From: a virus
Direction: 5' to 3' (one strand)
Length of the DNA: 64,000 bases
IMG/VR virus record: IMGVR_UViG_3300042549_004948
Span: 1-64,000 of that record
The translations under genes and the position numbers were made by a program. This document shows positions 20,224 through 64,000 of this stretch, piece after piece (position 1 is the stretch's first letter; each line of letters begins with the position of its first letter). The notes under the pieces are model-generated. The model saw only the letters and a program-made list of their open reading frames with translations. It made no database searches and had not been told where the DNA came from.

Positions 20224-20250
20224 ATTGGTCTATTTACTTATAAATATTTA

Positions 20251-20496: not shown

Positions 20497-20513
20497 AGAC
20501 TTAATTTATGATC

Positions 20514-20522: not shown

Positions 20523-20539
20523 TAAAAATATAAACTAAA

Positions 20540-37530: not shown

Positions 37531-37974
37531 ATGGGACAATTAGACCAATTAAGAAAGCTTATAAGAGAAGAACTCAGGTCCGTTATCAAGGAGGAGCTTC
37601 CTAAAATATTAAAGGAAAGCTATAAGCCTGTCATGTCTGATCCTAAAAAGAACCTTCAGGAGCAGGTTAAATCAAAAATACCAGGCACATTAAATACTCA
37701 TGCATCTAGACCTCAAATCAAATTTGCAGGTAATAATCCTATGGCAGCCTTATTAAATGATACTGCTAATAGTATGTTAAATGAAGACTTTTCTATGACA
37801 TCTGCCGATGTACACCCAGGGATGGGTTTCCAGCCTAAAGAGGTTTCTGTAGGATCTGTTGAAGGAATGCTTGGATCAGCTAGACCTAGCTCAAATATAG
37901 ACGCTGTTCAAATAAATGAAGTTCCTGATTTTTCTGGCCTAATGGCTAAGTTTAAAGAGAGAGGCGAAATATAA
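37531..37974 (+). CDS. Hypothetical protein, putative head-internal
   Basis: LRKLIREELRSVIKEELPKILKE leader; late motif upstream. Confidence 0.65.
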   Translation: MGQLDQLRKLIREELRSVIKEELPKILKESYKPVMSDPKKNLQEQVKSKIPGTLNTHASRPQIKFAGNNPMAALLNDTANSMLNEDFSMTSADVHPGMGFQPKEVSVGSVEGMLGSARPSSNIDAVQINEVPDFSGLMAKFKERGEI

Positions 37975-38387
37975 TGGCATACGGATTAAAGAAAATAGCT
38001 GTAATAGATTTAAAACCATCAACCGGAGTTGGGGTGGCTATTCCATTTTCTGCCGATAATGTATTCACTACAACATATACCACCAAAGATCAGACTAAAT
38101 ATAATTTAATTAACTTCTTATTGACTGATCCTAGAGAGAGGCCGTTTAATCCTAATTTTGGAGCCGGTTTAAGGGCAAGACTTTTTGAACAGATAGATCA
38201 GACTACTTTTGAAGATATGAAGCAGTCTATAAGAACTCAAATAGAAAATAATTTTCCAAACGTTGAAATAGTTACTCTAGAAATAACAGGAAATCCTGAT
38301 TATAATTCAATAAACATTAAATTTAGTTATAGACTATTAAGATCAAATGAAAATGATTCAGTTATATTGACCATTCAAAATATGTAA
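37974..38387 (+). CDS. gp25: Baseplate wedge / sheath initiator (T4 gp25-like)
   Basis: NLINFLLTDPRERPFNPNFGAGLRARLFE. Confidence 0.88.
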   Translation: MAYGLKKIAVIDLKPSTGVGVAIPFSADNVFTTTYTTKDQTKYNLINFLLTDPRERPFNPNFGAGLRARLFEQIDQTTFEDMKQSIRTQIENNFPNVEIVTLEITGNPDYNSINIKFSYRLLRSNENDSVILTIQNM

Positions 38388-38389
38388 AA

Positions 38390-45927: not shown

Positions 45928-45984
45928 ACTTAAATTTTAAAAAGTCAAAAGAAAGATATTTATTTATAAAACAAAAGATTATAT

Positions 45985-46644: not shown

Positions 46645-46655
46645 TAGATTAAAAT

Positions 46656-47702
46656 ATGTCATTCACTAGATTAGACCCATCAGATTTTGTAGTATCAGCT
46701 GATTCAGTTACAGCGCCGGCATGGAGCAATAATGTACCTACTCTAACTGCTTTTTTTACAGCCTCTTCTACAGCAACAGGTAGTTATTATGTAGATGTTT
46801 ATAATGGAATTTTTACTAATATTAGTTCATCAGTACAATTCTCAGTAGCATACGGAAATATTTACGGTTCTGGATCTGCGCCTCTAAATTCATTAGTACC
46901 GGGAAACAGCCCTACTAGAATTACATTTGGGCAATTTAGAAATATTATTTATGGAGATGCAGAAAGCCCAGTAAATTTTGGGTCTGGTAATACTGGTTCT
47001 GTAGATTTAATTGCTATTCAAGTTGATAGAAATAGATATAAAGAGTCTTTGTTCCCAGGAACATTTAACCTTAAACTATCTTATAAAACAAATACAGCTC
47101 CAATTCAATTAACAGATAATTCAAATGATATATCTACTATAACATATTTAGATTGTGGTAGGGCTTTTAATATTATCTCTGGATCTAATGGAAGTGCTGC
47201 AGCCTCTCCTCTATTGAGTGGAGCTCCTGATAAAGGATACACTGCTTCTGGGTCATATGGACTATATCTTCCGGATGTTGGATTGATCTTATTAAATCCA
47301 AAGGCTTTATATTTAAATGCTGCCGGCGGAGGAATAGACTTAGCCTTTCTTACAGGATCAGCTAATAGTACAGTTCAAGCTTCTTCGTATAATAACAATG
47401 CTATTTTTGAAGCCATTAATTCAGGAAGTTTCTTTCAATTAAATTCTCAAGAAACAATATCTTCAGATTATATCTTTGTAAGGATTAAAAACCAAGATTA
47501 TAATTATACAACTAACCCATCATTTATATCTGGATCTGGTACTTTGATATACTCAAATTTTATCAACAGTCCTCAGACATTCCCTACAAGTGTTGGATTG
47601 TATAATGATAATAATGAACTACTTGCTGTAGCTAAAATGTCAAAACCTCTTACGAAAGATTTTACTAAAGAGGCTTTAATTAGAGTAAAACTAGACTTTT
47701 AA
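46656..47702 (+). CDS. Baseplate-associated protein (intact paralog of the split gene)
   Basis: C-terminal YNYTTNPS...VGLYNDNNELLAVAKMSKP...IRVKLDF. Confidence 0.65.
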   Translation: MSFTRLDPSDFVVSADSVTAPAWSNNVPTLTAFFTASSTATGSYYVDVYNGIFTNISSSVQFSVAYGNIYGSGSAPLNSLVPGNSPTRITFGQFRNIIYGDAESPVNFGSGNTGSVDLIAIQVDRNRYKESLFPGTFNLKLSYKTNTAPIQLTDNSNDISTITYLDCGRAFNIISGSNGSAAASPLLSGAPDKGYTASGSYGLYLPDVGLILLNPKALYLNAAGGGIDLAFLTGSANSTVQASSYNNNAIFEAINSGSFFQLNSQETISSDYIFVRIKNQDYNYTTNPSFISGSGTLIYSNFINSPQTFPTSVGLYNDNNELLAVAKMSKPLTKDFTKEALIRVKLDF

Positions 47703-47708
47703 AAATAA

Positions 47709-48938
47709 ATGTCAAGAGCGAAGAATACGATAAAGTTATCTGATATATCTTCGACTCCTATTAAAGTATTTTATTCTTCCTCTTATGCTAGTCAGTCTTT
47801 AATAGACTCAGGAATAACTACTAATAGGGGTACGAATATACCTCTGTCAGCTTCTATGTCTACAACTAATCAGACTAGAATGGTGAATTATAGAGTCATG
47901 AAACAACTCTATTATCAACCCTATTTAACAGGATCATTACTTAATTCAGCTTCTTATTGGGCACAGTCTTGGCAATCTACTGCCGCCTCTGGTACTTTTG
48001 ATGATACCAATCTAACATTTCCAGGTGAAATAGGAAAGAACATTAGCTTTTTAGCAATTCCTCCAATCACATTTGGTGAACAAATAAGTAGAAAGAGTTT
48101 TAATATAGCTTCAACAGATTCTGTTAGTTATAATATAATTGATGATGGAAATGGAAATATAGTTGACTCGCTTTCCAATTCTATTCACGTAGGAAACATA
48201 TTTTATGCACAAGGTATAGTTACGATCACAAATAACGATTATGTTGGCATAGCTTTAAATAATAACTTTACTATTAGTAGTAGTGTTATTCCTTCACCGT
48301 CAACTACTCCTAGCGTTTCTGTTACACCTAGTATATCAGCAACTCCTAGTGTAACTCCTAGTATATCTGTAACTCCTAGTATATCTGTAACTCCTAGTAT
48401 ATCTGTAACTCCTAGTGTAACTCCTAGTATATCTGTAACTCCTAGTATTTCTATGACTCCTACTTTGAGTCCTGGTATTTCATTAACACCTAGTATAACA
48501 GTAACTCCTAGTATTTCTCCTACTCGTACAGTGTCTGTCACCCCTAGTGTTACTAGAACGCCTAGTCCGACCCCGGCTTTTTATACTGTAACTGTAGATA
48601 GGGCATTTCAATCTGCTGTAACTGTTCCACCTCCTGCAAGATTCTGGTATAAATTAGGAGCTGGCGGTACTAAAACAGAAATAGGAACATCAACAAAAAC
48701 CCCTGTTTGTAATACAACAGCAACTCAAGGAACTATAACAAATATACCGGCCGGAACCGTATTATATCTAGGTGTAGAAGCTGATAGCGTAGGTGTTAGA
48801 TTTGGTCCAGGCGGTTGTGCAGGATCAGCTCTTTCAAATTGTGGTTTTGATTTCTCACCTTATTCATTTACGGTAACCTCTAGTACTACTGTGACATTAA
48901 AAGTTGCTATAAATACTGGAGATTATATGACATGTTAA
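47709..48938 (+). CDS. Chimeric virion protein: baseplate-paralog N-domain + S/T/P mucin-like stalk + Cys-containing tip domain
   Basis: N-domain aligns with the 46656 protein up to VGNIFYAQGIVTIT; then (SISVTP)n; then ~120-aa domain ending YMTC. Confidence 0.75.
   Translation: MSRAKNTIKLSDISSTPIKVFYSSSYASQSLIDSGITTNRGTNIPLSASMSTTNQTRMVNYRVMKQLYYQPYLTGSLLNSASYWAQSWQSTAASGTFDDTNLTFPGEIGKNISFLAIPPITFGEQISRKSFNIASTDSVSYNIIDDGNGNIVDSLSNSIHVGNIFYAQGIVTITNNDYVGIALNNNFTISSSVIPSPSTTPSVSVTPSISATPSVTPSISVTPSISVTPSISVTPSVTPSISVTPSISMTPTLSPGISLTPSITVTPSISPTRTVSVTPSVTRTPSPTPAFYTVTVDRAFQSAVTVPPPARFWYKLGAGGTKTEIGTSTKTPVCNTTATQGTITNIPAGTVLYLGVEADSVGVRFGPGGCAGSALSNCGFDFSPYSFTVTSSTTVTLKVAINTGDYMTC
48291..48576 (+). 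repeat. 18-bp/12-bp tandem repeat encoding S-[IV]-S-V-T-P
   Basis: Consecutive copies of ACTCCTAGTATATCTGTA. Confidence 0.9.
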
Positions 48939-48983
48939 ATAGTTTTATAATATTAGATAATAGCAAATAAATATATATATTAA

Positions 48984-51134: not shown

Positions 51135-51139
51135 TAATT

Positions 51140-51180
51140 AAAAATAAATTTTTTTATTTGAAATAAATTTTGTATATTAA
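51140..51180 (+). promoter_or_regulatory. Putative promoter of glycan operon
   Basis: AAAATAAATTTTTTTATTTGAAATAAATTTTGTATATTAA aligns without gaps to the 31840-31879 element. Confidence 0.6.
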
Positions 51181-51183
51181 GTT

Positions 51184-52443
51184 ATGGCTAAAATATTCGT
51201 TTCGATCGCAGCATACAGAGATCCCGAACTTCTTCCTACTTTAAAAGATCTCTTAAATAATTGTTCTGAACCTGATAATCTACACGTTTGTATCGGTTGG
51301 CAGCACTCTGAAGAAGATACTTGGGATAATTTAGATGAATATAAAAATGATTCTAGATTTACTATCTTAGACTATAACTATAAAGATGCTAAAGGTGTTT
51401 GTTGGATTAGAAAAAGAATTCAAGAACAATATAAAGGAGAGGATTATTACTTTCAGTTAGATTCTCACCATAGATTTAGTAAAGGTTGGGATACTACACT
51501 AAAAGATTATATTCACTATTTTCAGTCTAAAGGAAACAAAAAGCCTTTGCTATCAGCATATATACCAGGATACTTTCCAAAGAACGATCCAGAAGGTAGA
51601 AATGAAGAAGTGTGGAGTTTAAACATACAAAGGTTTATGCCTTCAGGAGTTATATTCTTAGAGCCTCATGGAGTAACTGAATGGAAAGAATTAACAGAGC
51701 CTTTTCCTACTAGATTTATATCGGCACACTTTATATTTACTTTAGGTAAGTTTGTTGAAGAAGTACCTTACGATGAGCATTTATATTTTCATGGCGAAGA
51801 ATCTTCTTTAGCTGCTAGAGCATTTACATTTGGTTATGATTTATTCTCTCCTCATAGAGCTATAGTTTGGCATGAATATACTAGAGATGGCAAGAAAAAA
51901 CATTGGGACGATAGTCAAGACTGGGCACAAAGAGATCAAGCATCTTATGCAAGATATAGAAAGTTAATGGGAGTAGAAGGTACTTGCAGTCCTTGTACAA
52001 GAAAATCATTGGGAGTAGAAAATTATTTTGGTGAAGAGAGAACATTCGAAGAATATGAAAAGTACGCAGGTTTAAAATTCTCTACACAACAAATACATAT
52101 AGAGGCAAAGAATGGTGAGTTTCCTCCAATCAAAAGTGACTATGAATCTGGTTTAGCTCACATAAGAAAATATTGCATCGATATTTATAAAGGATCACTT
52201 ACTGAGCAAGACTACGACTTTTTTGCTATAGCATTTCTAGATGATAAAGGAAATGATATTCATAGAAGAGATGCAGAAAAGAGTGAAGTATTAGCACTAT
52301 TTACAGAAAATAAAGATGATCAATTTATCCATATTTGGAGAACATTTGAACATCCAGATAAGCCTTACTCATGGAGAGTTTGGCCTCACACCGAATCTAA
52401 AGGGTGGATGGAAAGAATAGAACAAGTTATATCATATGAATAA
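51184..52443 (+). CDS. GT60-like polypeptide N-acetylglucosaminyltransferase (Pfam GlcNAc-like)
   Basis: IFVSIAAYRDPEL, KGVCWIR, YFQLDSHHRF, YFHGEE...RAFTFGYDLFSP...VWHEY. Confidence 0.85.
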   Translation: MAKIFVSIAAYRDPELLPTLKDLLNNCSEPDNLHVCIGWQHSEEDTWDNLDEYKNDSRFTILDYNYKDAKGVCWIRKRIQEQYKGEDYYFQLDSHHRFSKGWDTTLKDYIHYFQSKGNKKPLLSAYIPGYFPKNDPEGRNEEVWSLNIQRFMPSGVIFLEPHGVTEWKELTEPFPTRFISAHFIFTLGKFVEEVPYDEHLYFHGEESSLAARAFTFGYDLFSPHRAIVWHEYTRDGKKKHWDDSQDWAQRDQASYARYRKLMGVEGTCSPCTRKSLGVENYFGEERTFEEYEKYAGLKFSTQQIHIEAKNGEFPPIKSDYESGLAHIRKYCIDIYKGSLTEQDYDFFAIAFLDDKGNDIHRRDAEKSEVLALFTENKDDQFIHIWRTFEHPDKPYSWRVWPHTESKGWMERIEQVISYE

Positions 52444-53707
52444 GAAACCTACAATATTAGTTCACTTACCGGCATACCGCGATCCTGAATTAATTCCAAC
52501 AATTAAAGACGCATTAGACAAAGCAAAGTATCCTAATCGTATACACTTCGGTATATGTAGGCAGTACCATCCAGAAGACGGATTTGATGATCTAACAGAA
52601 TATAAAACAGATAAAAGATTTAAAATCTATGAGTGCTTATATAGTGAAGCTCAAGGTCTTCCTTGGGCAAGAGCTATAATTAATGAGCAGTTATTAACTG
52701 ATGAAGACTATGTATGCCAACTAGATTCACATCATAGATTTGCTCAGGATTGGGATGAGACATTAATACAAATGCATCTTGATTTAGAAGCTAAAGGATA
52801 TAAGCCAATCATAGCAGGATACTCTCCTCTATATGATCCATTTAATGAACCTGCTGGTAGATCAATGGAACCATGGCAATCTCAATTTGTTTGTTTCTAT
52901 CCTCATGGAACTATATTCATTAGACCTGGTTTATTACACGGTTATGAGAATATGACTGAACTTCCGATGTCTAGATTCTTATGCGGACATTTTGACTTCG
53001 CAAGATCAGAATGGGCAAGAGATGTAAGACACGATCCTAATATATATTTCTCAGGTGAAGAGATTAATCTAACAGTCAGATCATACACTCATGGCTATGA
53101 TATGTTTCACCCGAATAAAATAGTAGTGTGGCATTCAACTATGCGTGAAGAAAGAGCTGGAAAATTAAAGTGGGATGATGATGTTAAACTAGGCAATGAT
53201 TGGTATAACAAGCAAGAGACCGCTAGGAAAAGAATAAGAGTCTTACTAGGGTCTGAACAGGATAGCTCGGTGGATTTGACTGGATACGGCCTGGGAACAG
53301 TCAGAACAGTTAGGGACTACGAGAAGTACGCAGGCGTTAATTTTAAAACAAGATCTGTTCAAAAGTATACTCTAGATAATCAATATCCTCCTAATCCACA
53401 TATTCAAGATGATCAACTTTGGGAAAAATCATTCATGGAATCATTTTATCACTTAGTAACAATATATAGACACGATTTCCCTAGGAATAATTATAAGCAC
53501 ATATTAGTAGCCTTTGATGATGATCAAGGTAATTCACTAAATAGTAAGTTTATAACAGATTATGAATTGCAGAATTTCATGACTAATGGAAACCACATTC
53601 ATTATGAAGAGTATTTCTTAACAGACAAAACGCCTGCTAGAGTAGTATTCTGGGGATACACAGAAGAAGACGGCTGGGTAGAAAGAATAGAACACAAAAT
53701 AGACTAG
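52436..53707 (+). CDS. Second GT60-like GlcNAc transferase
   Basis: ILVHLPAYRDPEL, GLPWAR, QLDSHHRF, YFSGEE...RSYTHGYDMFHP...VWH. Confidence 0.85.
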   Translation: MNKKPTILVHLPAYRDPELIPTIKDALDKAKYPNRIHFGICRQYHPEDGFDDLTEYKTDKRFKIYECLYSEAQGLPWARAIINEQLLTDEDYVCQLDSHHRFAQDWDETLIQMHLDLEAKGYKPIIAGYSPLYDPFNEPAGRSMEPWQSQFVCFYPHGTIFIRPGLLHGYENMTELPMSRFLCGHFDFARSEWARDVRHDPNIYFSGEEINLTVRSYTHGYDMFHPNKIVVWHSTMREERAGKLKWDDDVKLGNDWYNKQETARKRIRVLLGSEQDSSVDLTGYGLGTVRTVRDYEKYAGVNFKTRSVQKYTLDNQYPPNPHIQDDQLWEKSFMESFYHLVTIYRHDFPRNNYKHILVAFDDDQGNSLNSKFITDYELQNFMTNGNHIHYEEYFLTDKTPARVVFWGYTEEDGWVERIEHKID

Positions 53708-54993
53708 TGATAAATAAAAACGATATACAAAGTTTAGTAGGAAATCATGTAGCGCCCTACATTTATAATTCAAAAGTATTTGAACCAGGAAAAACTCCTA
53801 TTTACTATTCCGGACCTTATTGGGATAATAAAGAAGTAGAAGCCGCAATAGATACGTTTCTAAATGGGAAGTGGATAACTGCAGGAGAAAAGGTTTACAA
53901 GTTTGAAAATGCTTTTAGTAAAAAGTTTAACGTTAAGCATTCTCACATGGTTAATTCTGGAAGTTCTGCTAATCTAGTTTTAATAGCTGCTCTAAAGAAA
54001 AGATTTAACTGGGCAGATGATGATGAGATTATAGTGTCTCCGGTAGGGTTTGCTACAACTGTTTCTGTTCTATATCAAAATAAACTAAAAGCTGTTTTTG
54101 TTGATATTGAATGGCAAACGCTTAACTTTGATGTAAGTAGAATAGAAGAGAAAATAACTTCTAGAACAAAAGGTATTTTCGTATCGCCGGTATTGGGAAA
54201 TCCTCCTGATATGGATAAGCTTAAAGCTTTAGCAGACAAATATGATCTTAAACTTATAGGAGATAATTGTGATAGTTTAGGGAGTGCATGGAATGGTAAT
54301 TATATAACAGACTACTATGTAGCTTTTTCTAATTCATTTTATCCAGCCCATCATATTTCTACTGGTGAAGGTGGAATGATATGCACTAATGACGATGAGC
54401 TAAAGTCTTTATTCGTAAGCCTTTCATGGTGGGGAAGAGATTGTTATTGTATAGGATCTGCTAATTTACTTTCATGTGGAACATGCGGAAATAGATTTGA
54501 TAAATGGTTAGAAAACTATGATGGCATTATTGATCATAAGTATGTGTTTAGTGAAATGGGATATAATTTAAAACCATTAGATTTACAAGGTGCGATTGGT
54601 TTAGTACAACTTGATAAATTAGATGAAATTGAAACTAATAGAAAAGTTTCTAGAAATACTTTATCTAAAATATTCACTGATAATATACCTGGTTTAAGAA
54701 TACCAGACGTATTATCTAAAGCGGATCCATGTTGGTTTGGTACTCCATTTATATGTGACGAACCAGGATTAAAACATAGACTAGTAGAATATCTAGAGGC
54801 AAATAAAATACAAACTAGAAATTATTTTGCAGGCAATATCTTATTACACCCAGGTTATTCTAAACTTGATGACTATACTTTATATCCGGAAGCAAATAAA
54901 GTACTTGATAAGGTATTTTTTATAGGAGCGGCTCCACATTATACAGAACCGGTATTTGATTATATAAATGATGTTATAACTAAATTTAAATGA
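53707..54993 (+). CDS. rfbH: CDP-4-keto-6-deoxyglucose 3-dehydrase (E1/RfbH), DegT/DnrJ/EryC1/StrS family
   Basis: VNSGSSANL, DNCDSLG, SFYPAHHISTGEGG (His in place of PLP Lys), WGRDCYC...TC Fe-S motif, YNLKPLDLQ. Confidence 0.88.
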   Translation: MINKNDIQSLVGNHVAPYIYNSKVFEPGKTPIYYSGPYWDNKEVEAAIDTFLNGKWITAGEKVYKFENAFSKKFNVKHSHMVNSGSSANLVLIAALKKRFNWADDDEIIVSPVGFATTVSVLYQNKLKAVFVDIEWQTLNFDVSRIEEKITSRTKGIFVSPVLGNPPDMDKLKALADKYDLKLIGDNCDSLGSAWNGNYITDYYVAFSNSFYPAHHISTGEGGMICTNDDELKSLFVSLSWWGRDCYCIGSANLLSCGTCGNRFDKWLENYDGIIDHKYVFSEMGYNLKPLDLQGAIGLVQLDKLDEIETNRKVSRNTLSKIFTDNIPGLRIPDVLSKADPCWFGTPFICDEPGLKHRLVEYLEANKIQTRNYFAGNILLHPGYSKLDDYTLYPEANKVLDKVFFIGAAPHYTEPVFDYINDVITKFK

Positions 54994-55667
54994 AAATATT
55001 AGTACTAGGAGATGGTTTATTAGGAAGTGAGATTGTAAGGCAAACAGGGTGGAATTATATTTCTAGAAAAAAAGACAATATTGATTTTATTAATGACTCA
55101 CTATCTTTTTATTTAGGACATTATGATATTATACTAAATTGTTTAGCTAATACAGATACGTACTCAACAGATAGAGAGCGTGTATATTCTATCAATTATC
55201 ATTTTATTATTAAGTTATCAAATCTTTGTAAAATATTAAATAAAAAATTAATTCACATATCTACAGATCATGTTTATGCTGATTCAGATTCTGATATTGA
55301 TGAAAATGGTTTAGCTATACCGGCTCCAAATTTTTATTCATATTCAAAATTATTAGCAGATGAATATGTTATGTTTAATAATAATGATCATTTAATATGT
55401 AGATGTTCATTTAAACCAAAACCATTTCCGTATAATAAAGGTTGGGTTGATCAATATGGAAATTTTGATTATGTTGATGTTATAGCTAATTTAATTATAC
55501 AATTAATAAATAAAAATGCTAATGGAGTTTATAATGTAGGAACAGAGAAAAAAACAATATATCAATTAGCTAAACAAACAAATCCAGATATCATGCCAGG
55601 TTATAGACCAAATAATGTACCTAGTGATATAACAATGAACTTAGATAAACTAAATTCTATTTTATGA
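54990..55667 (+). CDS. RmlD-like NDP-4-keto-sugar reductase (SDR)
   Basis: GDGLLG, HISTDHVY, YSYSK. Confidence 0.8.
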   Translation: MKILVLGDGLLGSEIVRQTGWNYISRKKDNIDFINDSLSFYLGHYDIILNCLANTDTYSTDRERVYSINYHFIIKLSNLCKILNKKLIHISTDHVYADSDSDIDENGLAIPAPNFYSYSKLLADEYVMFNNNDHLICRCSFKPKPFPYNKGWVDQYGNFDYVDVIANLIIQLINKNANGVYNVGTEKKTIYQLAKQTNPDIMPGYRPNNVPSDITMNLDKLNSIL

Positions 55668-56596
55668 ATTTAACTTTTTTCTTTGATAAAGAAGGAGCCG
55701 GGAATCCTTATTTTAAATATATCTACAATACTATATTTGATTTATTTAATTTAAAATTTCCTGAGCACTCTATAAAGCACCGACAACCAGAAGGGTCATA
55801 TCAAAGTTCTCCTGGTGGGATGTCTAATTTTCAAATTATAAATGATGAAAATAATAAAACTATTTTAATGTCTTTTTGGGACAGAGGAATGAATACATTT
55901 TTACCTGGTTTAGGATGGGAAAAATATAAAATAGTTCAATATATAGGAGGTCTAGGAATGAACTTAAATTCTAACCAGATAAAAGAAACTTATGGAATAG
56001 ACCATTCTAATTTCCAATATCCATTAGGAGTTCCTAATAGTTATGATTATCTAGATCAAGTAAGAGTAGAATATAATCCAGAACAAAAGATAAGAAAAGC
56101 TATTTTTATAGGCGCTATATATGGAACAAGAACTCCACTGTCAGAGCTACTATCAAAACATGAATTATTTGAAGTACTAGATAACTCAACAGGGTATCAC
56201 GGTTTGGAATATTATAAAAAGATAAATGAATATAGAGTATCGTTATCTTTTAATGGAAATGGTGAATTTTGTTTACGAGATTTAGAATCTATGGGGTTAG
56301 GAATACCATGCCTAAGATCTGAGTTAAAGACGCAGTTTTATAATCCACTTATACAAGACTACCATTATATTAATGGAGGGAGAGTTTGTTCAAATGCTTG
56401 GTTTACATATTCTGATTCTAAAATAGAAGATATCGCAGATGAATACATAAATGCATTAGAACTTATTATAGATGATTATGATAAATTAAAAAAAATCTCT
56501 TCTAATGGGCAACAGTATTTTAATTCTTATTCTAAACCTGATTATATTATTGACTTATTTTTTAAACTAGTTAAAATACATGAACTCAATAATTAA
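55664..56596 (+). CDS. Putative GT-B glycosyltransferase
   Basis: FIGAIYGTR, SLSFNGNGEFCLRDLESMGLG, IS.NGQQYF. Confidence 0.6.
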   Translation: MNLTFFFDKEGAGNPYFKYIYNTIFDLFNLKFPEHSIKHRQPEGSYQSSPGGMSNFQIINDENNKTILMSFWDRGMNTFLPGLGWEKYKIVQYIGGLGMNLNSNQIKETYGIDHSNFQYPLGVPNSYDYLDQVRVEYNPEQKIRKAIFIGAIYGTRTPLSELLSKHELFEVLDNSTGYHGLEYYKKINEYRVSLSFNGNGEFCLRDLESMGLGIPCLRSELKTQFYNPLIQDYHYINGGRVCSNAWFTYSDSKIEDIADEYINALELIIDDYDKLKKISSNGQQYFNSYSKPDYIIDLFFKLVKIHELNN

Positions 56597-57458
56597 AGAA
56601 AAGATTGCCATTTGTTACTCGTGCGCAGGAGAAAGTTATCGAGAGAGTGCGGTCCGTCAATTAACAGAACACTACTTCGATGATGACAATTTATTTTACT
56701 TTATAATAACAGATGATAAAAAGTATTTTGATAATATAAAAAGGAAAAACCTAATTGTCAATGAATTAAAAGACTTTTATGAAGAGTTTCCTCACGTAGA
56801 AAAATATGAGGCTTTATTAGAATCAGTAGATAAAAATGATTATGCTAAACAATTTGTAGAATCGGGGTATTTATATTCTTTTTCATTGATGAGATTTCAT
56901 TTATTACAAGCTTATAAACATGGAATAACTAATGTATCTATAATGTGTACAGATACTAATATAAATTTTGAATTATTTAATAATAATTTATTTGATATTA
57001 AAAATACAATTTATAATGCGGTATCAGAATGGGATACAAATATCGATAAAAAAGATATGGATATTATTAAAAACTATTTAAAAGAAAACCATAATCTAGT
57101 ACCTTCAGAAGTCGTACGTGTTTTAGACGCAGCTGCAAGATTTTTTATTTTTAGTGATTTAGATAATATGTATAATTTTTTTAATATATGGAATCAAACT
57201 ATTATATATCTCTATGAAAATAACTTAATGAGAAGATTCGCAGGCTCATATGTATATCATGATGAATATATATTAGCTCCTATCTATAATGTATTTAAAC
57301 TCACCGAAAGAGATTATCATTCAACAAGTAGAATATTCACTGTTATACATAACCAAATTCATGAAAGATTTTGGAAAGCAGGAGGATCTATTGATGGTAT
57401 CATGGATCACATTAATTATAATGAATTTTTAAAAATAAACAATTTATCTAATGGCTAA
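56580..57458 (+). CDS. Putative GT-A-like glycosyltransferase
   Basis: CAGESY, IITDDKKYF, FSLMRF, CTDT, HDE; paralogous to the 59126 gene. Confidence 0.5.
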   Translation: MNSIIKEKIAICYSCAGESYRESAVRQLTEHYFDDDNLFYFIITDDKKYFDNIKRKNLIVNELKDFYEEFPHVEKYEALLESVDKNDYAKQFVESGYLYSFSLMRFHLLQAYKHGITNVSIMCTDTNINFELFNNNLFDIKNTIYNAVSEWDTNIDKKDMDIIKNYLKENHNLVPSEVVRVLDAAARFFIFSDLDNMYNFFNIWNQTIIYLYENNLMRRFAGSYVYHDEYILAPIYNVFKLTERDYHSTSRIFTVIHNQIHERFWKAGGSIDGIMDHINYNEFLKINNLSNG

Positions 57459-59136
57459 TATAAGTTATCACGGATCTCATAATGGAGGTTTAGTTATAGA
57501 AAACAATGGTGAAATCCTATGTGTTGTAGAATTTGAAAGATTCATCAATAGTAAAAATGTTGGGATGTCTCAATATAAAATGCCTAGACATATTATAATT
57601 TGTCTTGAGCAAATATTAGATTGGGTTTATAAAGAGTATGGAATAGAAGAATTTGAAAATTGTTATTTTTCATCTACAGATTTTATAGGAGAATCTTTTA
57701 CAGGCCCCTATCAGCTTTTTCAAACTTACAACATGATAAAAGCTAAAAACTATATTCATGGAACGCATCACGAATCTCATGCGGCTGGTTGTTTTTATCA
57801 ATCGCCATTTAAAGAAGCTATAGTATTCTCTTTCGATGGAGGCGGAGACGATGGAGAGTTTAATGTATACCATGCCGTAAGAGGTCAAGAGCTTAATAGA
57901 TTAGCTCAACTTTTAAATCCAACATATAATAGACCTCACCTATATTATAACTTAGGATTTGCGTATATGATATTCGGGCAATATCTAAAAGACATAACCA
58001 TAGATAATGTTTCAGATGGTAACTTAGTATGGCCAGGAAAAATAATGGGATTAGTTTCCTACGGTAAATGGAAAGAAGAGTGGTTAGATGCATTCATAAC
58101 ATTTTTTAAAGATGATCCAGACGGGCATGAAAATGATTATGTTGGTAAATTAAATACTCTAGGTGAAAAAATAGGAATCTCATTTGATATAAATAATAGA
58201 TTTGAAGGACAGTTAGCTTATGATGTTGCGGCTACCGCACAAAGAGCTTTTGAAGAGTGCTTTATAGAAGTAGCAAAACCATATTTCGAAGAGTATCCAG
58301 ATCTTCCTATTTGTATAACTGGAGGCTGTGCTTTAAACATTATATTGAATACTAGAATAAAACAAGAGTTTAATAAAGAAGTTTTTGTAGGACCTAATCC
58401 AAATGATTGCGGAATAGCTTTAGGATTAATGTTAAAACATTTAAAGCCTGAAAATGCTATTGATATAACTTATAAAGGGCTTCCTATATTAGATAAAAAT
58501 TTACTAGTCCAAAGAGTTTGTGAGCATAATAATGTTAGGAGATTAATGGAAAGAGACGAGGCATATCATCCGGTTGAACAATATGATCCTTCGATAGTAG
58601 TTCAAGATTTATTAAGTGGTAAAATAATTGGTGTAGTTAAAGGACAATCAGAGCACGGTCCTAGAGCATTAGGACATAGAAGTATATTATGTAACCCATC
58701 CATACCAGAAATGAAAGATGTATTAAATGCTAAAGTTAAAAATAGAGAGTGGTATAGACCATTTGCACCGGTTGTTAGATTAGAAGACGTAAGTAAATAT
58801 TTTGAATGGGAAGGAGAATCTAGGTGGATGAGTTTCTGCCCGACAGTTAGAGAAGAGTGGAGAGAAAAGTTAGCCGCTATTACTCATGTTGATGGAACTG
58901 CTAGAGTACAAACAGTAACAAAAGATCAAAATGAATTTTTATATAACCTACTTACTGAATTTGAAAAATTAACAGGCGTAGGAGTTTTACTAAATACGTC
59001 TTTTAATGTTAATGGAAAACCTATACTATCTACATATGCAGACGCATTTGAAATTTATACCAAGACACAGTTAGATTGTTTATTATTAGAAGATTATTAT
59101 ATAAGAAAAGAAGATTATAAAAGATATGAAAAATAA
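57451..59136 (+). CDS. O-carbamoyltransferase (NodU/CmcH/TobZ family)
   Basis: HHESHA, DGGGD, GKIMGL, GGCALN, NDCG, EHGPRALGHRS, REWYRPFAP, HVDGTARVQTV, LLNTSFN. Confidence 0.93.
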   Translation: MANISYHGSHNGGLVIENNGEILCVVEFERFINSKNVGMSQYKMPRHIIICLEQILDWVYKEYGIEEFENCYFSSTDFIGESFTGPYQLFQTYNMIKAKNYIHGTHHESHAAGCFYQSPFKEAIVFSFDGGGDDGEFNVYHAVRGQELNRLAQLLNPTYNRPHLYYNLGFAYMIFGQYLKDITIDNVSDGNLVWPGKIMGLVSYGKWKEEWLDAFITFFKDDPDGHENDYVGKLNTLGEKIGISFDINNRFEGQLAYDVAATAQRAFEECFIEVAKPYFEEYPDLPICITGGCALNIILNTRIKQEFNKEVFVGPNPNDCGIALGLMLKHLKPENAIDITYKGLPILDKNLLVQRVCEHNNVRRLMERDEAYHPVEQYDPSIVVQDLLSGKIIGVVKGQSEHGPRALGHRSILCNPSIPEMKDVLNAKVKNREWYRPFAPVVRLEDVSKYFEWEGESRWMSFCPTVREEWREKLAAITHVDGTARVQTVTKDQNEFLYNLLTEFEKLTGVGVLLNTSFNVNGKPILSTYADAFEIYTKTQLDCLLLEDYYIRKEDYKRYEK

Positions 59137-60142
59137 ACCTGTAGTTGTTACTTGGGGATTAGGACCTAGTTATAGAGATAGAGTCAAACAAAATTTTTTA
59201 GAAAGTATTTCTATGGGATATAGTGATACCATGGATTATATTATTTTAACTGACTTACCGTCTGATTTTGATGAATTAAGAAGTAGCACAAATAAAATAA
59301 TAGATGTCATTAATATTCATGAAGTAAGAAAAGATTATCTATGGTCTATAGATATAGAATATATACCTACTAATCAAGAAACTTATGGAAAAGATTATAG
59401 AGATAATTTATATAATAAAAACTTTTTTTCTTATTCTTTAAATAGATTCTCTTTACCAAGAATAGCAGAACTAGGATACACTAAGTTTATAATGCATGAT
59501 CCAGATGCAAATTTAAAATATGATAAAATAGTTTCTGGAGAAATATCTGAAGAAGAATTCTGGAGTGAATTTGATACTCCAATAAATTCAATGAAGGCAT
59601 GTCATAAAGAAGAATTAAAAATAGAGTTAGGAAAATTTCATGATACCGCAGCAATGGGATCTGCAAGTTACTCTGGTTTACAATTAGCATCTATTATAAT
59701 GGATAGGCTAAATAATAAATATGATACGCATAATACAGATCCTATAATACGTAATCTACCAATAACAGAAGGTCCTTTTAGATATTATAATTTTGATTCT
59801 GTAGACACTGTTAAAAAATATTTTGATGTTTGGAATAAATGTTGTAAAATTAGTTATTCAAATAACATTTTTAGAGGGTGTTCTGAATGTGGTGGGTATA
59901 TGCTTTGTGATTATATTCCTGTAGGAGTAGCTAACAAGTACTGTGACATTAAAGTTTTAGACTTTAGTAAAAAATATTATGACATAAAAATATATTTTAC
60001 AGATAGATACTTTATTCCAAAGTCTATGAACTTCGCAGATGGGAGTGGGTTCATACCAGCAGATACTATAGAACAGTTTTATGAAATAAATAAAGAAAAA
60101 ATACAAATTTTAAAGTCAGAAAATAGATGGCCGATATTTTAA
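59126..60142 (+). CDS. Putative GT-A-like glycosyltransferase
   Basis: GLGPSY, IILTDLP, FSYSLNRF, DPD motif. Confidence 0.5.
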   Translation: MKNKPVVVTWGLGPSYRDRVKQNFLESISMGYSDTMDYIILTDLPSDFDELRSSTNKIIDVINIHEVRKDYLWSIDIEYIPTNQETYGKDYRDNLYNKNFFSYSLNRFSLPRIAELGYTKFIMHDPDANLKYDKIVSGEISEEEFWSEFDTPINSMKACHKEELKIELGKFHDTAAMGSASYSGLQLASIIMDRLNNKYDTHNTDPIIRNLPITEGPFRYYNFDSVDTVKKYFDVWNKCCKISYSNNIFRGCSECGGYMLCDYIPVGVANKYCDIKVLDFSKKYYDIKIYFTDRYFIPKSMNFADGSGFIPADTIEQFYEINKEKIQILKSENRWPIF

Positions 60143-60151
60143 AATATTAAT

Positions 60152-63100
60152 ATGAAAAAAAAGCTATTCAAAAAAGTAAGGGGTTTTGAGAATATAAAAT
60201 TAGAACCTACTATAATAAATGATGATCAATTAGATTATCTTGTTCTTTATTTATTAGATTGTATAGATAATAATATAGACGGCGATGTTGTAGAACTAGG
60301 TTGCTTTGTAGGAGAGTCTAGTAAGTATTTAAGAAAATCAATTGAACAATCAGAATCTAGTAAGAAGCTATATGTGTATGATTCATTTGAAGGACTTCCA
60401 GAGTTAACAAAATATGAAGAGGGCACTGGTTGGAGAGAGGGTACTTTAAATACTACGGAAGATATATTAACAAAGAATTTTGTACAGAATGGCTTAGAGC
60501 TTCCAATTATTACTAAATCTTGGTTTAAAGATATACCAAATGAAAGACTCCCAGAAAAAATATCATTTGCTTTTCTTGATGGAGATTTTTATAATTCAAT
60601 ATATGACAGTCTAACTAAAATATATGATAGAGTAGAAAACGGCGGATACATTTGTTTTCATGATTATGATAGAAACGATTTACCAGGAGTGAAAGCTGCT
60701 ATAGTAGACTTCTTCTCAGAAAGGTCTATTAACTATGAAATACTAAAAGTATGTGATCAATTAGCTATAATCAAAAAAAATGAAAAAATAGTATCTTTAA
60801 GTATAGAAAAATATGATAGAGCAAATATAGAATCAGAAGAATCTTTGGACTATTATATAAAAAAATATGGCACAGATAAATCTATAAGTGGATATACTCC
60901 AATGTATGAATGTATATTTGATGATCTTAGATCTGAAAGATTAGCTTTATTAGAAATAGGAATAGGTAGTTTAGATAATCATGTAATAGGAAATTTTATA
61001 CAAACAAAATCAATTTACTATGATCACTATGTACAAGGCGGATCTTTAAGAGTCTGGAGAGATTATTTTCCAAAAGCAGAAATACACGGCATCGATATCG
61101 CAGACGATTGTAAATTTTCAGAAGATAGAATTTCAACATTTATTTGTGATTCTAGAGATAAAAGTGAATGCGATTCGTATCTAAAAGAAAACACTTATGA
61201 TATTATAATTGATGACGGACTCCACAAAGCAAGTGCACAACTTCAAACGTTAAAAAACTTTTTTGATAGAGTTAAAAAAAATGGGTATTATATTATAGAA
61301 GACTTAGGTGGTGGCGGAGATGGAACTAATTTATATGCAGATAGAAAACAAGACGTTATTGATATTATAAAAGATCATGAATGGTTTTTTAAAAATAATT
61401 TTTTAGCTATTAAAAAAACAAATTCAAAAAGAGGAGAGTTATCTTCATTAACAGAATTTAAAAAGGAAAATAATCGTCCTAAATCTGACTTAACAATAGT
61501 TTCTGGATTATGGGATATAGGAAAACAAAATAGATCATTTGATCATTACTTAATGTGCTTTGAAAAATTCCTAGAAATAGATCAAAATCTGTTTTTATTT
61601 ATACCTAAAGAATTAGAAGACTTAGTATGGACCAAAAGAAGTAAACATAACACAAGAATAAAAATAGTTGAATTAGAAGATGTTAAAAATCTATATGGTC
61701 CTTTTTGGGATAGGACACAAGAAATAAGAAAGTCTGAAGACTGGATTAATCAAGCAAATTGGTTAGCTAACTCTCCACAAGGATCTCTTGAGTGGTATAA
61801 TCCTATTGTGATGTCTAAACTTGCAATACTTCATGATGCTAGCATTTATAATCCATTTAGAACAGAGAATTTTATTTGGTTAGATGCTGGAATTAGTAAT
61901 ACTATAAACTATAATTTATTAATAGAATCTGATTTCTTTGATAAGCTACCATCATATCTAGATCCATTCTTATTTATTCAATATCCATATCCATATTATA
62001 ATAAAGGTATCGGAGAAGTACATGGTTTTAATTGGGAAAAACTAAATGAATATGCCGGTGGAGTTGTTGAGTGGATTAGTAGAGGTGGATTATTTGGAGG
62101 AAAAAAAGAAGTTATCTCTGATGTTAATAGTTACTATTGGCACTTGCTAGATAATAGTCTGAATGAAAACTTAATGGGAACAGAGGAAAGTCTGTTTTCT
62201 ATTCTAGCAAAGAAATACCCTGAGATATTTAGAACTTCAAAAATAAATATAAATGGGCATATTCAAGAATTTGTAGAAGCAGTTATAAATAATACGGCAG
62301 TACTAGATCCTATTCCTGAAGATAGGATAAAAAGCAAACACAAATTTGTAAATGTAGATAATTTAAAGGTCAGTCTTTATATGCTTACGTTTAACTTCCC
62401 GCATCAAGTTGAACACACTATTCAAAAATGGTTGAAGCATGAGAAGTGGATAACTAATACCAGAAATATACTTATAGATAATTCTACAAACGATGAAGCT
62501 AGAATAGCTAATGCAGAAATTTGTAAGAAGTATAATTTTGAGCATATAATAACAAATGAAAATACTGGGATCAATGGCGGTAGATTTAGAGCGGCTCAAC
62601 ACTTTCAAGAATCGGATAGCGATTACTATATATTCTTAGAAGACGATATGGGAATAAACTCTCCTAGTGATACTACATTTTGTAGAAATGGATTTAGAAG
62701 GCACATTCCGAACTTATATGATAGGGTTTTAAAAATAATTCATGATACAGATATAGACTTCTTAAAACTATCTTACACAGAAGTTTACATGGACAATAAT
62801 ATCCAAGTATCTTGGTATAATGTTCCTCAAAATATAAGGTCAGAATTTTGGCCTGACTATGATAAACTGCCAGTGCAAGGTTTAGATCCAAATTGTCCTA
62901 GAACTAAGTTCAATGAAATAGAAGTATTAGACGGATTAAGTTATGCTACAGGAGAGATCTACTATTGTAACTGGCCAACTATATGTGGTAAGAAGGGAAA
63001 CCAGAAAATGTTCTTAGATGTTACGTGGCAAAGTCCTTTTGAACAAACTTGGATGAGTTATATGTATCAAGAAACTAAAAAGGGAAATTTGAAACCTGCG

Positions 63101-63172
63101 GTATTATTGGCCAGCCCAATAGATCATGATAGAATAGCTCACTATAAGCCTGAAGAAAGAAGGGAAAACTAA
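60152..63172 (+). CDS. Four-domain fusion: TylF/MycF O-methyltransferase + class I SAM methyltransferase + HtrL/YibB-like glycosyltransferase + GT2-like domain
   Basis: GDVVELG..YDSFEGLP..FLDGDFY..HDY; YGTDK..LEIGIG..DIIIDDGLH..IIED; TIVSGLWDIG..WLDAG..GGLFGG..GTEE; LIDNST..GINGGR..FLEDD. Confidence 0.82.
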   Translation: MKKKLFKKVRGFENIKLEPTIINDDQLDYLVLYLLDCIDNNIDGDVVELGCFVGESSKYLRKSIEQSESSKKLYVYDSFEGLPELTKYEEGTGWREGTLNTTEDILTKNFVQNGLELPIITKSWFKDIPNERLPEKISFAFLDGDFYNSIYDSLTKIYDRVENGGYICFHDYDRNDLPGVKAAIVDFFSERSINYEILKVCDQLAIIKKNEKIVSLSIEKYDRANIESEESLDYYIKKYGTDKSISGYTPMYECIFDDLRSERLALLEIGIGSLDNHVIGNFIQTKSIYYDHYVQGGSLRVWRDYFPKAEIHGIDIADDCKFSEDRISTFICDSRDKSECDSYLKENTYDIIIDDGLHKASAQLQTLKNFFDRVKKNGYYIIEDLGGGGDGTNLYADRKQDVIDIIKDHEWFFKNNFLAIKKTNSKRGELSSLTEFKKENNRPKSDLTIVSGLWDIGKQNRSFDHYLMCFEKFLEIDQNLFLFIPKELEDLVWTKRSKHNTRIKIVELEDVKNLYGPFWDRTQEIRKSEDWINQANWLANSPQGSLEWYNPIVMSKLAILHDASIYNPFRTENFIWLDAGISNTINYNLLIESDFFDKLPSYLDPFLFIQYPYPYYNKGIGEVHGFNWEKLNEYAGGVVEWISRGGLFGGKKEVISDVNSYYWHLLDNSLNENLMGTEESLFSILAKKYPEIFRTSKININGHIQEFVEAVINNTAVLDPIPEDRIKSKHKFVNVDNLKVSLYMLTFNFPHQVEHTIQKWLKHEKWITNTRNILIDNSTNDEARIANAEICKKYNFEHIITNENTGINGGRFRAAQHFQESDSDYYIFLEDDMGINSPSDTTFCRNGFRRHIPNLYDRVLKIIHDTDIDFLKLSYTEVYMDNNIQVSWYNVPQNIRSEFWPDYDKLPVQGLDPNCPRTKFNEIEVLDGLSYATGEIYYCNWPTICGKKGNQKMFLDVTWQSPFEQTWMSYMYQETKKGNLKPAVLLASPIDHDRIAHYKPEERREN

Positions 63173-63186
63173 TATTTATTCTTGAT

Positions 63187-63492
63187 ATGCCAATAATTAC
63201 ACCAAGACCATACACAGTTTCTTTTGTAGCAGAAAGTACTATATACCAAAATGAGGTTAGATGCTTAGTTAATGAGAATGACTTTAACTATACTCAGAAC
63301 CCATCTGCCGTACAATTAGGAACCTCAGGATCATATATAAATGCCGTAACCGGATCTGATTTTCATCCGTACTCTTCAATGGTAGGATTATATAATGACA
63401 AGGATGAACTTCTAGTCGTAGGTAAATTAGCTAGGCCATATCCAGTACCACAGAACACAGACGTTACCTTTATTATAAGATGGGATTCATAG
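63187..63492 (+). CDS. Detached C-terminal domain of the split baseplate-associated gene
   Basis: FNYTQNPS...VGLYNDKDELLVVGKLARP...FIIRWDS matches the C-terminus of the 46656 protein; own ATATTTAT motif at 63172. Confidence 0.75.
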   Translation: MPIITPRPYTVSFVAESTIYQNEVRCLVNENDFNYTQNPSAVQLGTSGSYINAVTGSDFHPYSSMVGLYNDKDELLVVGKLARPYPVPQNTDVTFIIRWDS

Positions 63493-63512
63493 TATTCTCA
63501 TATTTATAATAA

Positions 63513-63974
63513 ATGGGTTTTATGAAAAAGTGGTTATATAAAGAATTAGACTCTACTAAGGAGTTTTACACCCTAGAAGATTTTCCTCAAGACACTATTG
63601 GATTCGTATATAAAGTTACTAATATATGTGACGGCCGCATATACGTGGGAAAGAAGGTTCTTTTCAATAATCTAACAAAGACATTAACCAAGAAAGAGAT
63701 CGCGGCATGGTCATCGCCTGGGCGCGTCCCACGCAAGAAGAAGGTGATAAAGGAGTCTGACTGGGAGTCTTATTGGGGAAGCAACAAGCACATAAAAGAG
63801 GATTTAAAGAATCTGGGTGAAAAGTGCTTCACTAGAGAGATCCTGACATTCTGTAAGACTAAGAAACAACTAACCTACTATGAAGTTTATTGGCAAATGA
63901 AATTAGAAGTGCTTGCCATAAACTCTTACAATGATAATATTCAAGGTAGGTTTTATAGAAAGGATCTAGAATAA
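63513..63974 (+). CDS. GIY-YIG-like endonuclease-fold protein
   Basis: GFVYKVTN...YVGKK, ESDWESYWGS, FTREIL, YYE, YNDNI. Confidence 0.7.
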   Translation: MGFMKKWLYKELDSTKEFYTLEDFPQDTIGFVYKVTNICDGRIYVGKKVLFNNLTKTLTKKEIAAWSSPGRVPRKKKVIKESDWESYWGSNKHIKEDLKNLGEKCFTREILTFCKTKKQLTYYEVYWQMKLEVLAINSYNDNIQGRFYRKDLE

Positions 63975-63998
63975 AAAACCCGACCTTACGGGGCCGGG
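63973..63998 (-). terminator. Intrinsic terminator for a convergent minus-strand transcript
   Basis: Minus strand CCCGGCC-CCGTAA-GGTCGGG-TTTTTT. Confidence 0.7.
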
Positions 63999-64000
63999 AA

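What the first reader, a model, noticed from the sequence alone, without database searches (positions are those of the whole stretch)
46656..63492. The glyco-cassette appears to sit inside, and split, a conserved baseplate gene
Seen: the intact 46656 protein has a middle part (LIAIQVDRNRYKESLFPGTFNL..LTDNSN..YGLYLPDVGLILL) and a C-part (YNYTTNPS..VGLYNDNNELLAVAKMSKP..IRVKLDF). The 47709 protein has only the first (FLAIPPITFGEQISRKSFNI..IIDDGNG..VGNIFYAQGIVTIT) and switches to repeats at ~48290. The missing C-part reappears ~15 kb later as a separate ORF (63187) with its own ATATTTAT motif. Inference: the whole mucin + glycan cassette was inserted within one ancestral gene. The N-half now anchors the mucin stalk to the baseplate, and the C-half is expressed separately and may reassemble in trans.
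Basis: partly seen in the sequence, partly recalled or inferred. Interest (0 to 1): 0.8.

Follow-up and report, generated by a model that had tools for sequence, protein, structure and literature searches.

The report
Split baseplate-module gene flanking a glycan cassette
A phage tail-baseplate gene that is one piece in close relatives is here cut in two, with 15 kb of mucin-like and sugar-building genes in between; the small end piece is conserved and is predicted to clip back onto the front piece.

Summary
The first 178 aa of the 47709 ORF and the 101-aa 63187 ORF match the two ends of one contiguous gene in relatives: 280-357 aa in Flavobacterium phage immuto and in many metagenomic phages. 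Two relatives with the same gene order as the window (L040, L042) have the gene intact and no cassette.

The end piece is not a remnant. There are at least 362 clusters of stand-alone 99-102-aa homologs, with dN/dS of 0.04-0.12. A complex prediction supports binding (score 0.79, best control 0.00). In it, the first strands of the small piece join the beta-sandwich of the front piece.

- Some relatives carry the two pieces as adjacent genes 3 nt apart, with no cassette.
- Others have them in reversed order, or with unrelated cargo of 2-8 kb between them.
- Fused and split forms are interspersed on the tree (at least 4 switches; a single split clade is rejected, AU p=5e-29).
- The cassette genes are as diverged between clades as the flanking genes.

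So this is an old, recurrently used cargo site inside a gene. No fold or family match names the protein. The scan noted the same split in another genome (e1-5774179).

The parts
37974..38387 (+). gp25-like baseplate wedge gene (context)
   Evidence: PF04965 E 5.4e-10; phrog_261 E 3.4e-21
38390..40246 (+). gp6/Baseplate_J-like wedge gene (context)
   Evidence: PF04865 E 2.4e-7; phrog_6 E 8e-24
46656..47702 (+). P0001, an intact 348-aa paralogue. It carries the same C-terminal domain as the C-ORF and lies directly upstream of the split or fused gene in every related locus.
47709..48242 (+). N-half of the split gene (aa 1-178 of the 47709 ORF). It ends at the conserved ITNxDY motif.
   Evidence: Alignment A2; aligns to aa 1-175 of the fused P0247; only one copy in the genome
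48243..48938 (+). Linker, S/T/P repeat stalk and Cys-containing tip domain, fused in frame to the N-half and ending in a stop codon
48984..51134 (+). Second mucin-like repeat protein (716 aa), part of the cargo
   Evidence: no Pfam hit
51184..63172 (+). Glycan cassette of nine genes: two PF11397 GlcNAc-transferases, a DegT aminotransferase, an RmlD-like protein, a carbamoyltransferase, a TylF methyltransferase-HtrL fusion, and three genes with no family match
63172..63179 (+). ATATTTAT motif 7 nt before the C-ORF start
   Evidence: conserved in L004, L006, L007, L009, L013 and L014
63187..63492 (+). C-half of the split gene as a stand-alone 101-aa ORF (P0003)
   Evidence: 40% identity, E 4e-22 to the C-end of immuto gene 165; 68% to the C-end of fused P0247; at least 362 stand-alone homologue clusters; dN/dS 0.04-0.12; complex prediction
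63513..63974 (+). SegE-type GIY-YIG domain gene. It is the conserved right-hand neighbour of the C-half or of the fused gene.
   Evidence: PF19835 E 2.2e-28; same position in Mel-JY01, L004-L009, L013-L015, L030, L031, L034, L035, L038 and L042

Best explanation
The 47709 N-part and the 63187 ORF are the two pieces of one baseplate-module gene that has undergone fission at the linker after its N-terminal beta-sandwich.

The front piece keeps the N-domain and carries a distal stalk-and-tip module fused in frame. The back piece is translated on its own.

After synthesis, the first strands of the 101-aa piece (about aa 6-28) complete the beta-sandwich of the front piece. This restores the two-domain protein without a covalent join. 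The conserved C-terminal domain stays free to dock with the baseplate or with the paralogue P0001.

The gap between the pieces is a long-lived cargo site. Different relatives hold nothing there, other distal domains, other enzymes, or glycan cassettes of up to 15 kb.

Shown here: the homology, the fission, conservation of the small ORF, the variable cargo, and repeated switching between fused and split states.

Inferred: non-covalent reassembly, presence in the virion, and a role in the baseplate.
For: Contiguous homologues cover both pieces in order.

L040 and L042 share the window's gene order (gp25, gp6-like, 365, 112, about 1390, 219 and 344 aa). There the gene is intact (280 and 287 aa), and in L042 it is followed by the SegE-like gene (the L040 contig ends 115 aa into an unidentified next ORF). 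Flanking proteins are 59-86% identical to the window's in L040, 48-84% in L042.

The stand-alone C-ORF has at least 362 homologue clusters of 99-102 aa at 70-96% identity. Its dN/dS is 0.04-0.12, with synonymous sites near saturation.

Every locus long enough to judge has both pieces.

Fused and split forms are interspersed among close relatives, so the two states appear functionally interchangeable.

The AlphaFold model of a fused homologue places the first strand of the C-half (aa 221-230, pLDDT 82) in the confident N-domain, while the rest of the C-half is of low confidence.

Complex prediction for the N-half and the C-ORF:
- Score 0.79, best of 3 controls 0.00.
- The mark was reached by 58 of 80 solved complexes and 2 of 110 mismatched pairs. 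These counts hold only roughly, because my own alignments were used.
- The runs agree in at least 94% of contacts, and the partner's pLDDT is at least 68.
- Contacts are C-ORF aa 6-28 with N-half aa 12-29 and 121-137.
- No solved relative exists, so the pass is not a memory of a known complex.

Adjacent split forms have the stop and start codons 3 nt apart (TAAAATATG), which suits coupled translation.
Against: There are no expression or virion data, and no cultured phage in the phage collection has the split form.

The complex score is the model's own confidence, not a measurement.

The C-domain itself folds with low confidence, and no fold match names the protein.

L022 and L027 have two N-ORFs but one C-ORF, and L014 has a bare 176-aa N-ORF. 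The stoichiometry and partner choice may therefore be looser than a simple one-to-one reassembly.

'Baseplate' rests on gene position only.
Confidence: 0.68

Rival explanations
1. One reading: in this lineage an intact gene was cut de novo by one insertion of the whole mucin-plus-glycan block, and that insertion is the cause of the split.
For: A fused form (P0247, locus L040) is the sister of the window's gene on the tree (support 93/88). It sits in the same gene order without a cassette. In every split relative some inserted DNA lies at the junction.
Against: Split genes without a cassette exist in the sister clade, and reversed-order forms also occur. Of the 18 split C-ORFs printed, 16 start with ATG-CC (Met-Pro); L013 and L036 do not; those of the window's subclade also share the upstream motif. 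Cassette genes are 43-48% identical between the two clades, the same as the flanks (P0001 48%, GIY-YIG 42-51%). This fits an old split-with-cassette allele, not a new event. Re-fusion by deletion in P0247 explains the tree equally well.
Confidence: 0.22
2. The 101-aa protein has become an independent small structural or assembly protein. For example, it might pair with the homologous C-domain of P0001 or fill a baseplate socket. On this view it does not reassemble with the N-half.
For: The C-domain is a widespread C-terminal module, with 1376 representative clusters in proteins of 100-1863 aa. Five neighbouring Mel-JY01 proteins carry it. One C-ORF serves loci that have two N-ORFs. The C-domain is of low confidence as a monomer, which suggests it needs an oligomer or a partner.
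Against: The stand-alone ORFs always keep the N-terminal strands that belong structurally to the N-domain. The predicted interface uses exactly these strands. Close relatives use the fused form. The two readings are not exclusive, since the C-domain may dock elsewhere while the strands hold the N-half.
Confidence: 0.15
3. The 63187 ORF is a decaying leftover of the interrupted gene with no function.
For: It is short, has no family match and lies at the edge of an insertion.
Against: There are at least 362 clusters of intact homologues of constant length. dN/dS is 0.04-0.12. There are 19 invariant columns across 56 sequences down to 41% identity. The start context is conserved.
Confidence: 0.02
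4. The two halves are rejoined covalently, by a split intein, RNA splicing or translational bypass.
For: Fractured genes with split inteins next to homing endonuclease genes are known from metagenomes (PMC2677866). A GIY-YIG gene is adjacent.
Against: P0002 and P0003 have no intein or Hint domain hit. The C-ORF aligns to fused homologues from about residue 8, leaving no room for a C-intein. The N-ORF continues into a repeat stalk and a tip domain. No intron or other Rfam family occurs in 46000-64000. The 14.9 kb between the halves holds ten co-directional genes.
Confidence: 0.02

Closest known systems
Genes-in-pieces of T4-like phages: nrdA of Aeromonas phage Aeh1 split by mobE, T4 topoisomerase genes 39/60 split by mobA, and DNA polymerase 43A/43B of phages 25 and 44RR (review PMC2988022)
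   Same: A gene that is contiguous in relatives is cut into two separately translated pieces by inserted DNA, and the pieces must reassemble non-covalently. A free-standing GIY-YIG-type gene lies next to the site. As for gene 43, the split may predate what now sits in it.
   Different: The known cases are enzymes cut by a single homing endonuclease gene or a short untranslated spacer. Here the gene is structural. The insert is a distal domain fused to the front piece plus 0-15 kb of cargo genes. The nuclease-like gene lies outside the split. Fused and split states alternate many times within one phage group.
Single-ORF orthologues: Flavobacterium phage vB_FspM_immuto gene 165 (QQO92083, 357 aa), the Microcystis phage Mel-JY01 591-aa protein (WWT39517), and metagenomic proteins P0126 and P0247
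   Same: They have the same N-domain motifs and the same C-terminal domain. They sit in the same position, after the P0001 homologue in the baseplate/tail-fibre block.
   Different: They are one polypeptide. Mel-JY01 carries an extra domain of about 280 aa inside the N-half (between the DDGNGN and VGNIFY motifs), not at the fission point. All are annotated as hypothetical proteins.
HEG islands: regions exchanged between phages and bounded by nuclease genes (PMC10448857)
   Same: A variable multi-gene block next to essential structural genes is bounded on one side by a conserved GIY-YIG-type gene. Conserved flanks could guide recombination.
   Different: Only one nuclease-like gene is present, and it is found in every relative rather than sporadically. 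No high-identity exchanged block was demonstrated here.
Fractured genes with split inteins (PMC2677866)
   Same: A gene in two pieces with a nuclease gene nearby.
   Different: No intein sequences are present. Rejoining, if any, is non-covalent.

Membership tests
Genes-in-pieces (phage gene split by inserted DNA) | A contiguous homologue exists in related phages | tested here: met
   immuto gene 165, L034/L038, P0247-P0249, and the L040/L042 contexts
Genes-in-pieces (phage gene split by inserted DNA) | The two pieces are colinear with, and together cover, the contiguous homologue | tested here: met
   The N-half aligns to aa 1-191 of P0247 and the C-ORF to aa 188-280. The linker may be represented in both pieces.
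Genes-in-pieces (phage gene split by inserted DNA) | The intervening DNA is a homing endonuclease gene | tested here: not met
   The insert is a repeat stalk, a second mucin-like gene and nine glycan-cassette genes. The SegE-like gene lies after the C-piece.
Genes-in-pieces (phage gene split by inserted DNA) | The pieces reassemble into a working protein | not testable with these tools
   Only a prediction is available: score 0.79 against best control 0.00. Fused and split forms are interchanged among close relatives.
Split-intein fractured genes | An N-intein at the end of piece 1 and a C-intein at the start of piece 2 | tested here: not met
   No intein or Hint Pfam hit. The C-ORF aligns to fused forms from residue 8 or so.
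T4-type baseplate proteins (gp6-gp12 set) | The gene lies in the baseplate module downstream of gp25-like and gp6-like genes | tested here: met
   PF04965 and PF04865 at 37974-40246 on the same strand, followed by six further ORFs (369, 112, 1407, 219, 348 aa, then the split gene); only 40257-45927 is contiguous, with gaps of 10-57 nt elsewhere
T4-type baseplate proteins (gp6-gp12 set) | Sequence or fold similarity to a solved baseplate protein | tested here: inconclusive
   No PDB sequence hit. Best structural Z is 5.5 (P1 head protein) for the fused model and 3.8 for P0001. T4 gp6 and a phiKZ peripheral baseplate chain appear only at Z 2.9-3.8.
Free-standing SegE-type GIY-YIG homing endonuclease (the neighbour at 63513) | A GIY-YIG catalytic domain of the SegE type | tested here: met
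   PF19835 E 2.2e-28, covering aa 21-141 of 153
Free-standing SegE-type GIY-YIG homing endonuclease (the neighbour at 63513) | Sporadic presence among related genomes, as expected for a selfish element | tested here: not met
   It is present at the same place in every related locus examined, at 42-62% identity.

The most novel reading that the evidence does not exclude
The half-gene pair is a natural plug-and-socket system. The 100-aa piece would be a universal clip that lets this phage group hang any distal module on the baseplate. The two conserved half-gene flanks, perhaps helped by the adjacent SegE-like nuclease, would act as homology arms through which host-range cargo of 0-15 kb is swapped between co-infecting phages. 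That would explain why fused and split states alternate so often at one exact site.
Probability: 0.3. Interest if true: 0.75.

Novelty: new variant of a known kind. Interest (0 to 1): 0.6.

Why it matters
Gene fission with non-covalent reassembly is known for a few phage enzymes. It is not known for a baseplate-module protein whose break point serves as a landing site for receptor-binding-type modules and whole glycosylation operons.

If the clip model holds, it has three consequences:
- It gives a natural, evolution-tested split site for displaying foreign domains on phage tails.
- It gives a sequence rule (N-half, cargo, 100-aa ORF, GIY-YIG gene) for finding host-range cassettes in uncultured freshwater phages.
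- It shows how a 15-kb operon can sit inside an essential structural gene without cost.

It also corrects annotation. Hundreds of ~100-aa 'hypothetical proteins' are the back half of a structural gene.

Tried and rejected
- Pfam and PHROGs give nothing for P0001, the P0002 N-half, P0003 or the fused P0126.
- PDB sequence profiles give no hit.
- Foldseek against the PDB finds nothing at E<=0.001. VIA-align wide gives a best Z of 5.5 and 3.8, which indicates only generic beta-sandwiches.
- The ESM Atlas returns only an unnamed viral cluster.
- Rfam finds nothing in 46000-64000.
- Sigma-70 and terminator scans are no better than shuffles.
- A first tree without clade-II fused forms could not reject a single origin of the split forms (AU p=0.31). 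This was overturned once P0247-P0261 were added.
- In L008, minus-strand genes appeared to lie upstream of the mucin gene. These are antisense ORF calls inside the repeats, and L007 and L008 are identical there.
- I first read the extra 280 aa of Mel-JY01 as an in-frame insert at the fission site. It lies inside the N-half instead.
Full report
**What is in the window.** The + strand from about 37.9 kb carries a baseplate block. It begins with a gp25-like gene (37974-38387, PF04965) and a gp6/J-like gene (38390-40246, PF04865). ORFs of 369, 112, 1407, 219 and 348 aa follow, none with a family match.

The 348-aa ORF is P0001 (46656-47702). Next is the 47709 ORF (P0002, 409 aa). Its first ~178 aa form a non-repetitive domain. 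S/T/P repeats follow (TRF arrays from 48306), then a Cys-containing tip domain.

After P0002 come:
- a second repeat protein (48984-51134);
- nine genes confirmed as a glycan cassette: two PF11397 GlcNAc-transferases, DegT, an RmlD-like protein, a carbamoyltransferase, a TylF-methyltransferase/HtrL fusion and three unmatched genes;
- the 101-aa ORF at 63187 (P0003);
- a SegE-type GIY-YIG gene at 63513.

The window is the first 64 kb of a 162-kb IMG/VR virus record.

**Check of the observation.** The C-part of P0001 matches P0003 (E 4e-11; profile probability 98.9%). The likeness between P0001 and the P0002 N-part is not significant by BLASTP. AlphaFold models of P0001 and of a fused homologue have the same order of secondary-structure elements. 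P0001 is therefore probably a distant full-length paralogue.

**The halves are one gene in relatives.** The nearest cultured relatives are the Flavobacterium phages vB_FspM_immuto, with the same gene order. Their gene 165 is one 357-aa ORF. Its aa 195-234 match the P0002 N-part (E 1e-5) and its aa 257-356 match P0003 (40% identity, E 4e-22). Mel-JY01 has a 591-aa single ORF with both parts, followed directly by a GIY-YIG gene.

A scan of viral contigs with the N-half gave 27 loci, and I mapped ORFs in them. L034 and L038 have a single 314-aa ORF. A protein search with that ORF found 591 clusters, most of them full-length at 284-360 aa. An exhaustive search with P0003 found fused forms close to the window's own clade: P0247 (280 aa, 71% identity over the C-half), P0248 and P0249.

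The contigs of P0247 and P0249 (L040, L042) show the window's gene order, from the gp25-like gene to the P0001 homologue. They have the intact gene and no cassette; in L042 the SegE-like gene comes next, while the L040 contig ends 115 aa into an unidentified next ORF. Their flanking proteins are 59-86% (L040) and 48-84% (L042) identical to the window's. Relative to these 'empty-site' relatives, 14.9 kb lie between the end of the N-half (48242) and the start of the C-ORF (63187).

**The small ORF is a real gene.** At least 362 clusters of stand-alone homologues of 99-102 aa exist at 70-96% identity, from many samples and assemblers. Pairwise dN/dS is 0.04-0.12, with synonymous sites near saturation. 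Nineteen columns are invariant across 56 sequences. In relatives with the same cassette type, the layout is: a large repeat protein, two GlcNAc-transferases, a variable set of enzymes, the ~100-aa ORF, the SegE-like gene, and a holin.

**The single-insertion story is too simple.** Relatives show a whole series of arrangements:
- Fused.
- Split and adjacent, with the stop and start codons 3 nt apart and a non-repeat distal domain on the N-ORF (L015, L016, L024, L025).
- The C-ORF in front of two N-ORFs (L022, L027).
- A bare 176-aa N-ORF followed by an unknown gene and a radical SAM/SPASM gene (L014).
- A GT6-containing insert (L013).
- A YadA-head fibre plus DUF7936 (L031).
- Glycan cassettes of 6.6-8.4 kb (L030, L033, L035-L037).

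On a tree of the gene itself, fused and split forms are interspersed. Six state changes are needed, at least four of them forced by well-supported branches. A single clade of split forms is rejected (AU p=4.6e-29). The direction of each change, whether fission or re-fusion by deletion, cannot be told.

Two facts argue that split alleles are old and share descent. Of the 18 split C-ORFs printed, 16 begin ATG-CC (Met-Pro); L013 and L036 do not; those in the window's subclade also share the upstream motif. In addition, the cassette's end genes are 43-48% identical between the two major clades, the same as P0001 (48%) and the GIY-YIG gene (42-51%).

At the junction, both the tail of the window's N-half and the head of its C-ORF align to the same ~13-aa linker of fused P0247. 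The C-ORF's ATG-CCA-ATA lines up with TAT-CCC-ATA in L040. This hints at a short junction duplication or at re-fusion, but the match is short.

**How it probably works.** In the AlphaFold model of fused P0126 (102-row alignment, mean pLDDT 63.6), the N-domain is confident (blocks at 82-93). That domain includes the first strand of the C-half (aa 221-230, pLDDT 82). The rest of the C-half is of low confidence, as expected if it needs partners. The structural search aligned residues 14-237 as one domain.

A complex prediction of the window's N-half with the C-ORF, each with its own alignment, supports binding:
- Score 0.79, best of 3 controls 0.00.
- The mark was reached by 58 of 80 solved complexes and 2 of 110 mismatched pairs. 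These counts hold only roughly, because my own alignments were used.
- The runs agree in at least 94% of contacts, and the partner's pLDDT is at least 68.
- Contacts are C-ORF aa 6-28 against N-half aa 12-29 and 121-137, the same strands that pack together in the fused model.

No solved relative exists, so the pass is not recall of a known complex. It remains a model's confidence, not a measurement.

The mechanism I favour is beta-strand complementation. The small protein completes the sandwich of the front piece and contributes the conserved C-domain. That C-domain is a widespread C-terminal module: 1376 representative clusters, five neighbouring proteins in Mel-JY01, and P0001 here. It may therefore be the part that docks to the baseplate or to P0001. 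If so, the small piece rather than the N-half would be the anchor.

**Alternatives excluded.** There are no intein domains and no intron or other RNA family. The C-ORF is in a different frame from the upstream gene. The pseudogene reading is refuted by the conservation data.

**Comparison with known systems.** The nearest known kind is the genes-in-pieces of T4-like phages: Aeh1 nrdA/mobE, T4 39/60/mobA and gene 43A/43B (PMC2988022). Those are enzymes cut by a nuclease gene or a short spacer. Here a structural gene is cut at a linker that serves as a recurrent cargo site, and the nuclease-like gene lies outside the split and is present in every relative. The idea that nuclease genes bound exchanged blocks (PMC10448857) is a lead for how cargo is swapped, but I did not test it.

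**Status and verdict.** No cultured phage in the phage collection has the split form. The scan's first readers noted the same split in this genome (e1-5735091) and in another genome (e1-5774179), and neither note had been followed up.

This is a new variant of a known kind. I rate the interest as moderate to high, for phage structural biology and for reading host-range loci in uncultured phages.

Noticed in passing
window 63513-63974: The SegE-type GIY-YIG gene consists of little more than the catalytic domain (153 aa). It is present at the same spot in every relative examined, which is unlike a sporadic homing endonuclease. PHROGs (phrog_447) and the immuto record label the family 'NAD synthetase', which looks like a wrong name.
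   Followed up: partly
L003 (Mel-JY01) 12490-21436: Five consecutive structural proteins (357, 352, 954, 718 and 591 aa) all end in the same ~85-aa C-domain as P0001 and P0003. The 591-aa protein carries an extra domain of about 280 aa inside the N-half.
   Followed up: partly
L022 9686-11623; L027 9599-11539: Reversed arrangement: the 100-aa C-ORF comes first, followed by two different N-ORFs (about 311 and 227 aa) and then the GIY-YIG gene. One clip may therefore serve two front pieces.
   Followed up: no
L014 10001-12862: The N-ORF is only 176 aa, stopping just after the N-domain. A 318-aa unknown gene and a radical SAM/SPASM gene sit between it and the C-ORF.
   Followed up: no
protein P0255 (289 aa): A C-ORF-like protein that starts at the usual strand, then has an insert of about 190 aa inside the C-domain before the conserved end. 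This would be a second permissive insertion site.
   Followed up: no
window 48239-48541 and 49196-50002, minus strand: Long antisense ORFs inside the S/T/P repeat DNA are artefacts of the repeat. Gene callers made the same false calls in L008.
   Followed up: yes
window, both strands: Ten of the 29 ATATTTAT copies lie 5-21 nt upstream of ORF starts on the coding strand (for example 34484, 37518, 45956, 63172, 63500). None precedes a gene inside the cassette, which may therefore be read as one unit.
   Followed up: partly
window 48243-48290 and 63187-63225; L040 10500-10590: Both the end of the N-ORF linker and the start of the C-ORF align to the same ~13-aa linker of the fused relative. This may be a junction duplication or a trace of re-fusion.
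   Followed up: partly
window 45927-45985 compared with L001 10069-11280 and L042 7504-8238: Immuto has an extra 403-aa gene, and L042 an extra 244-aa gene, between the ~1400-aa gene and the 219-aa gene. The window has none. This is a second small variable spot in the baseplate block.
   Followed up: no
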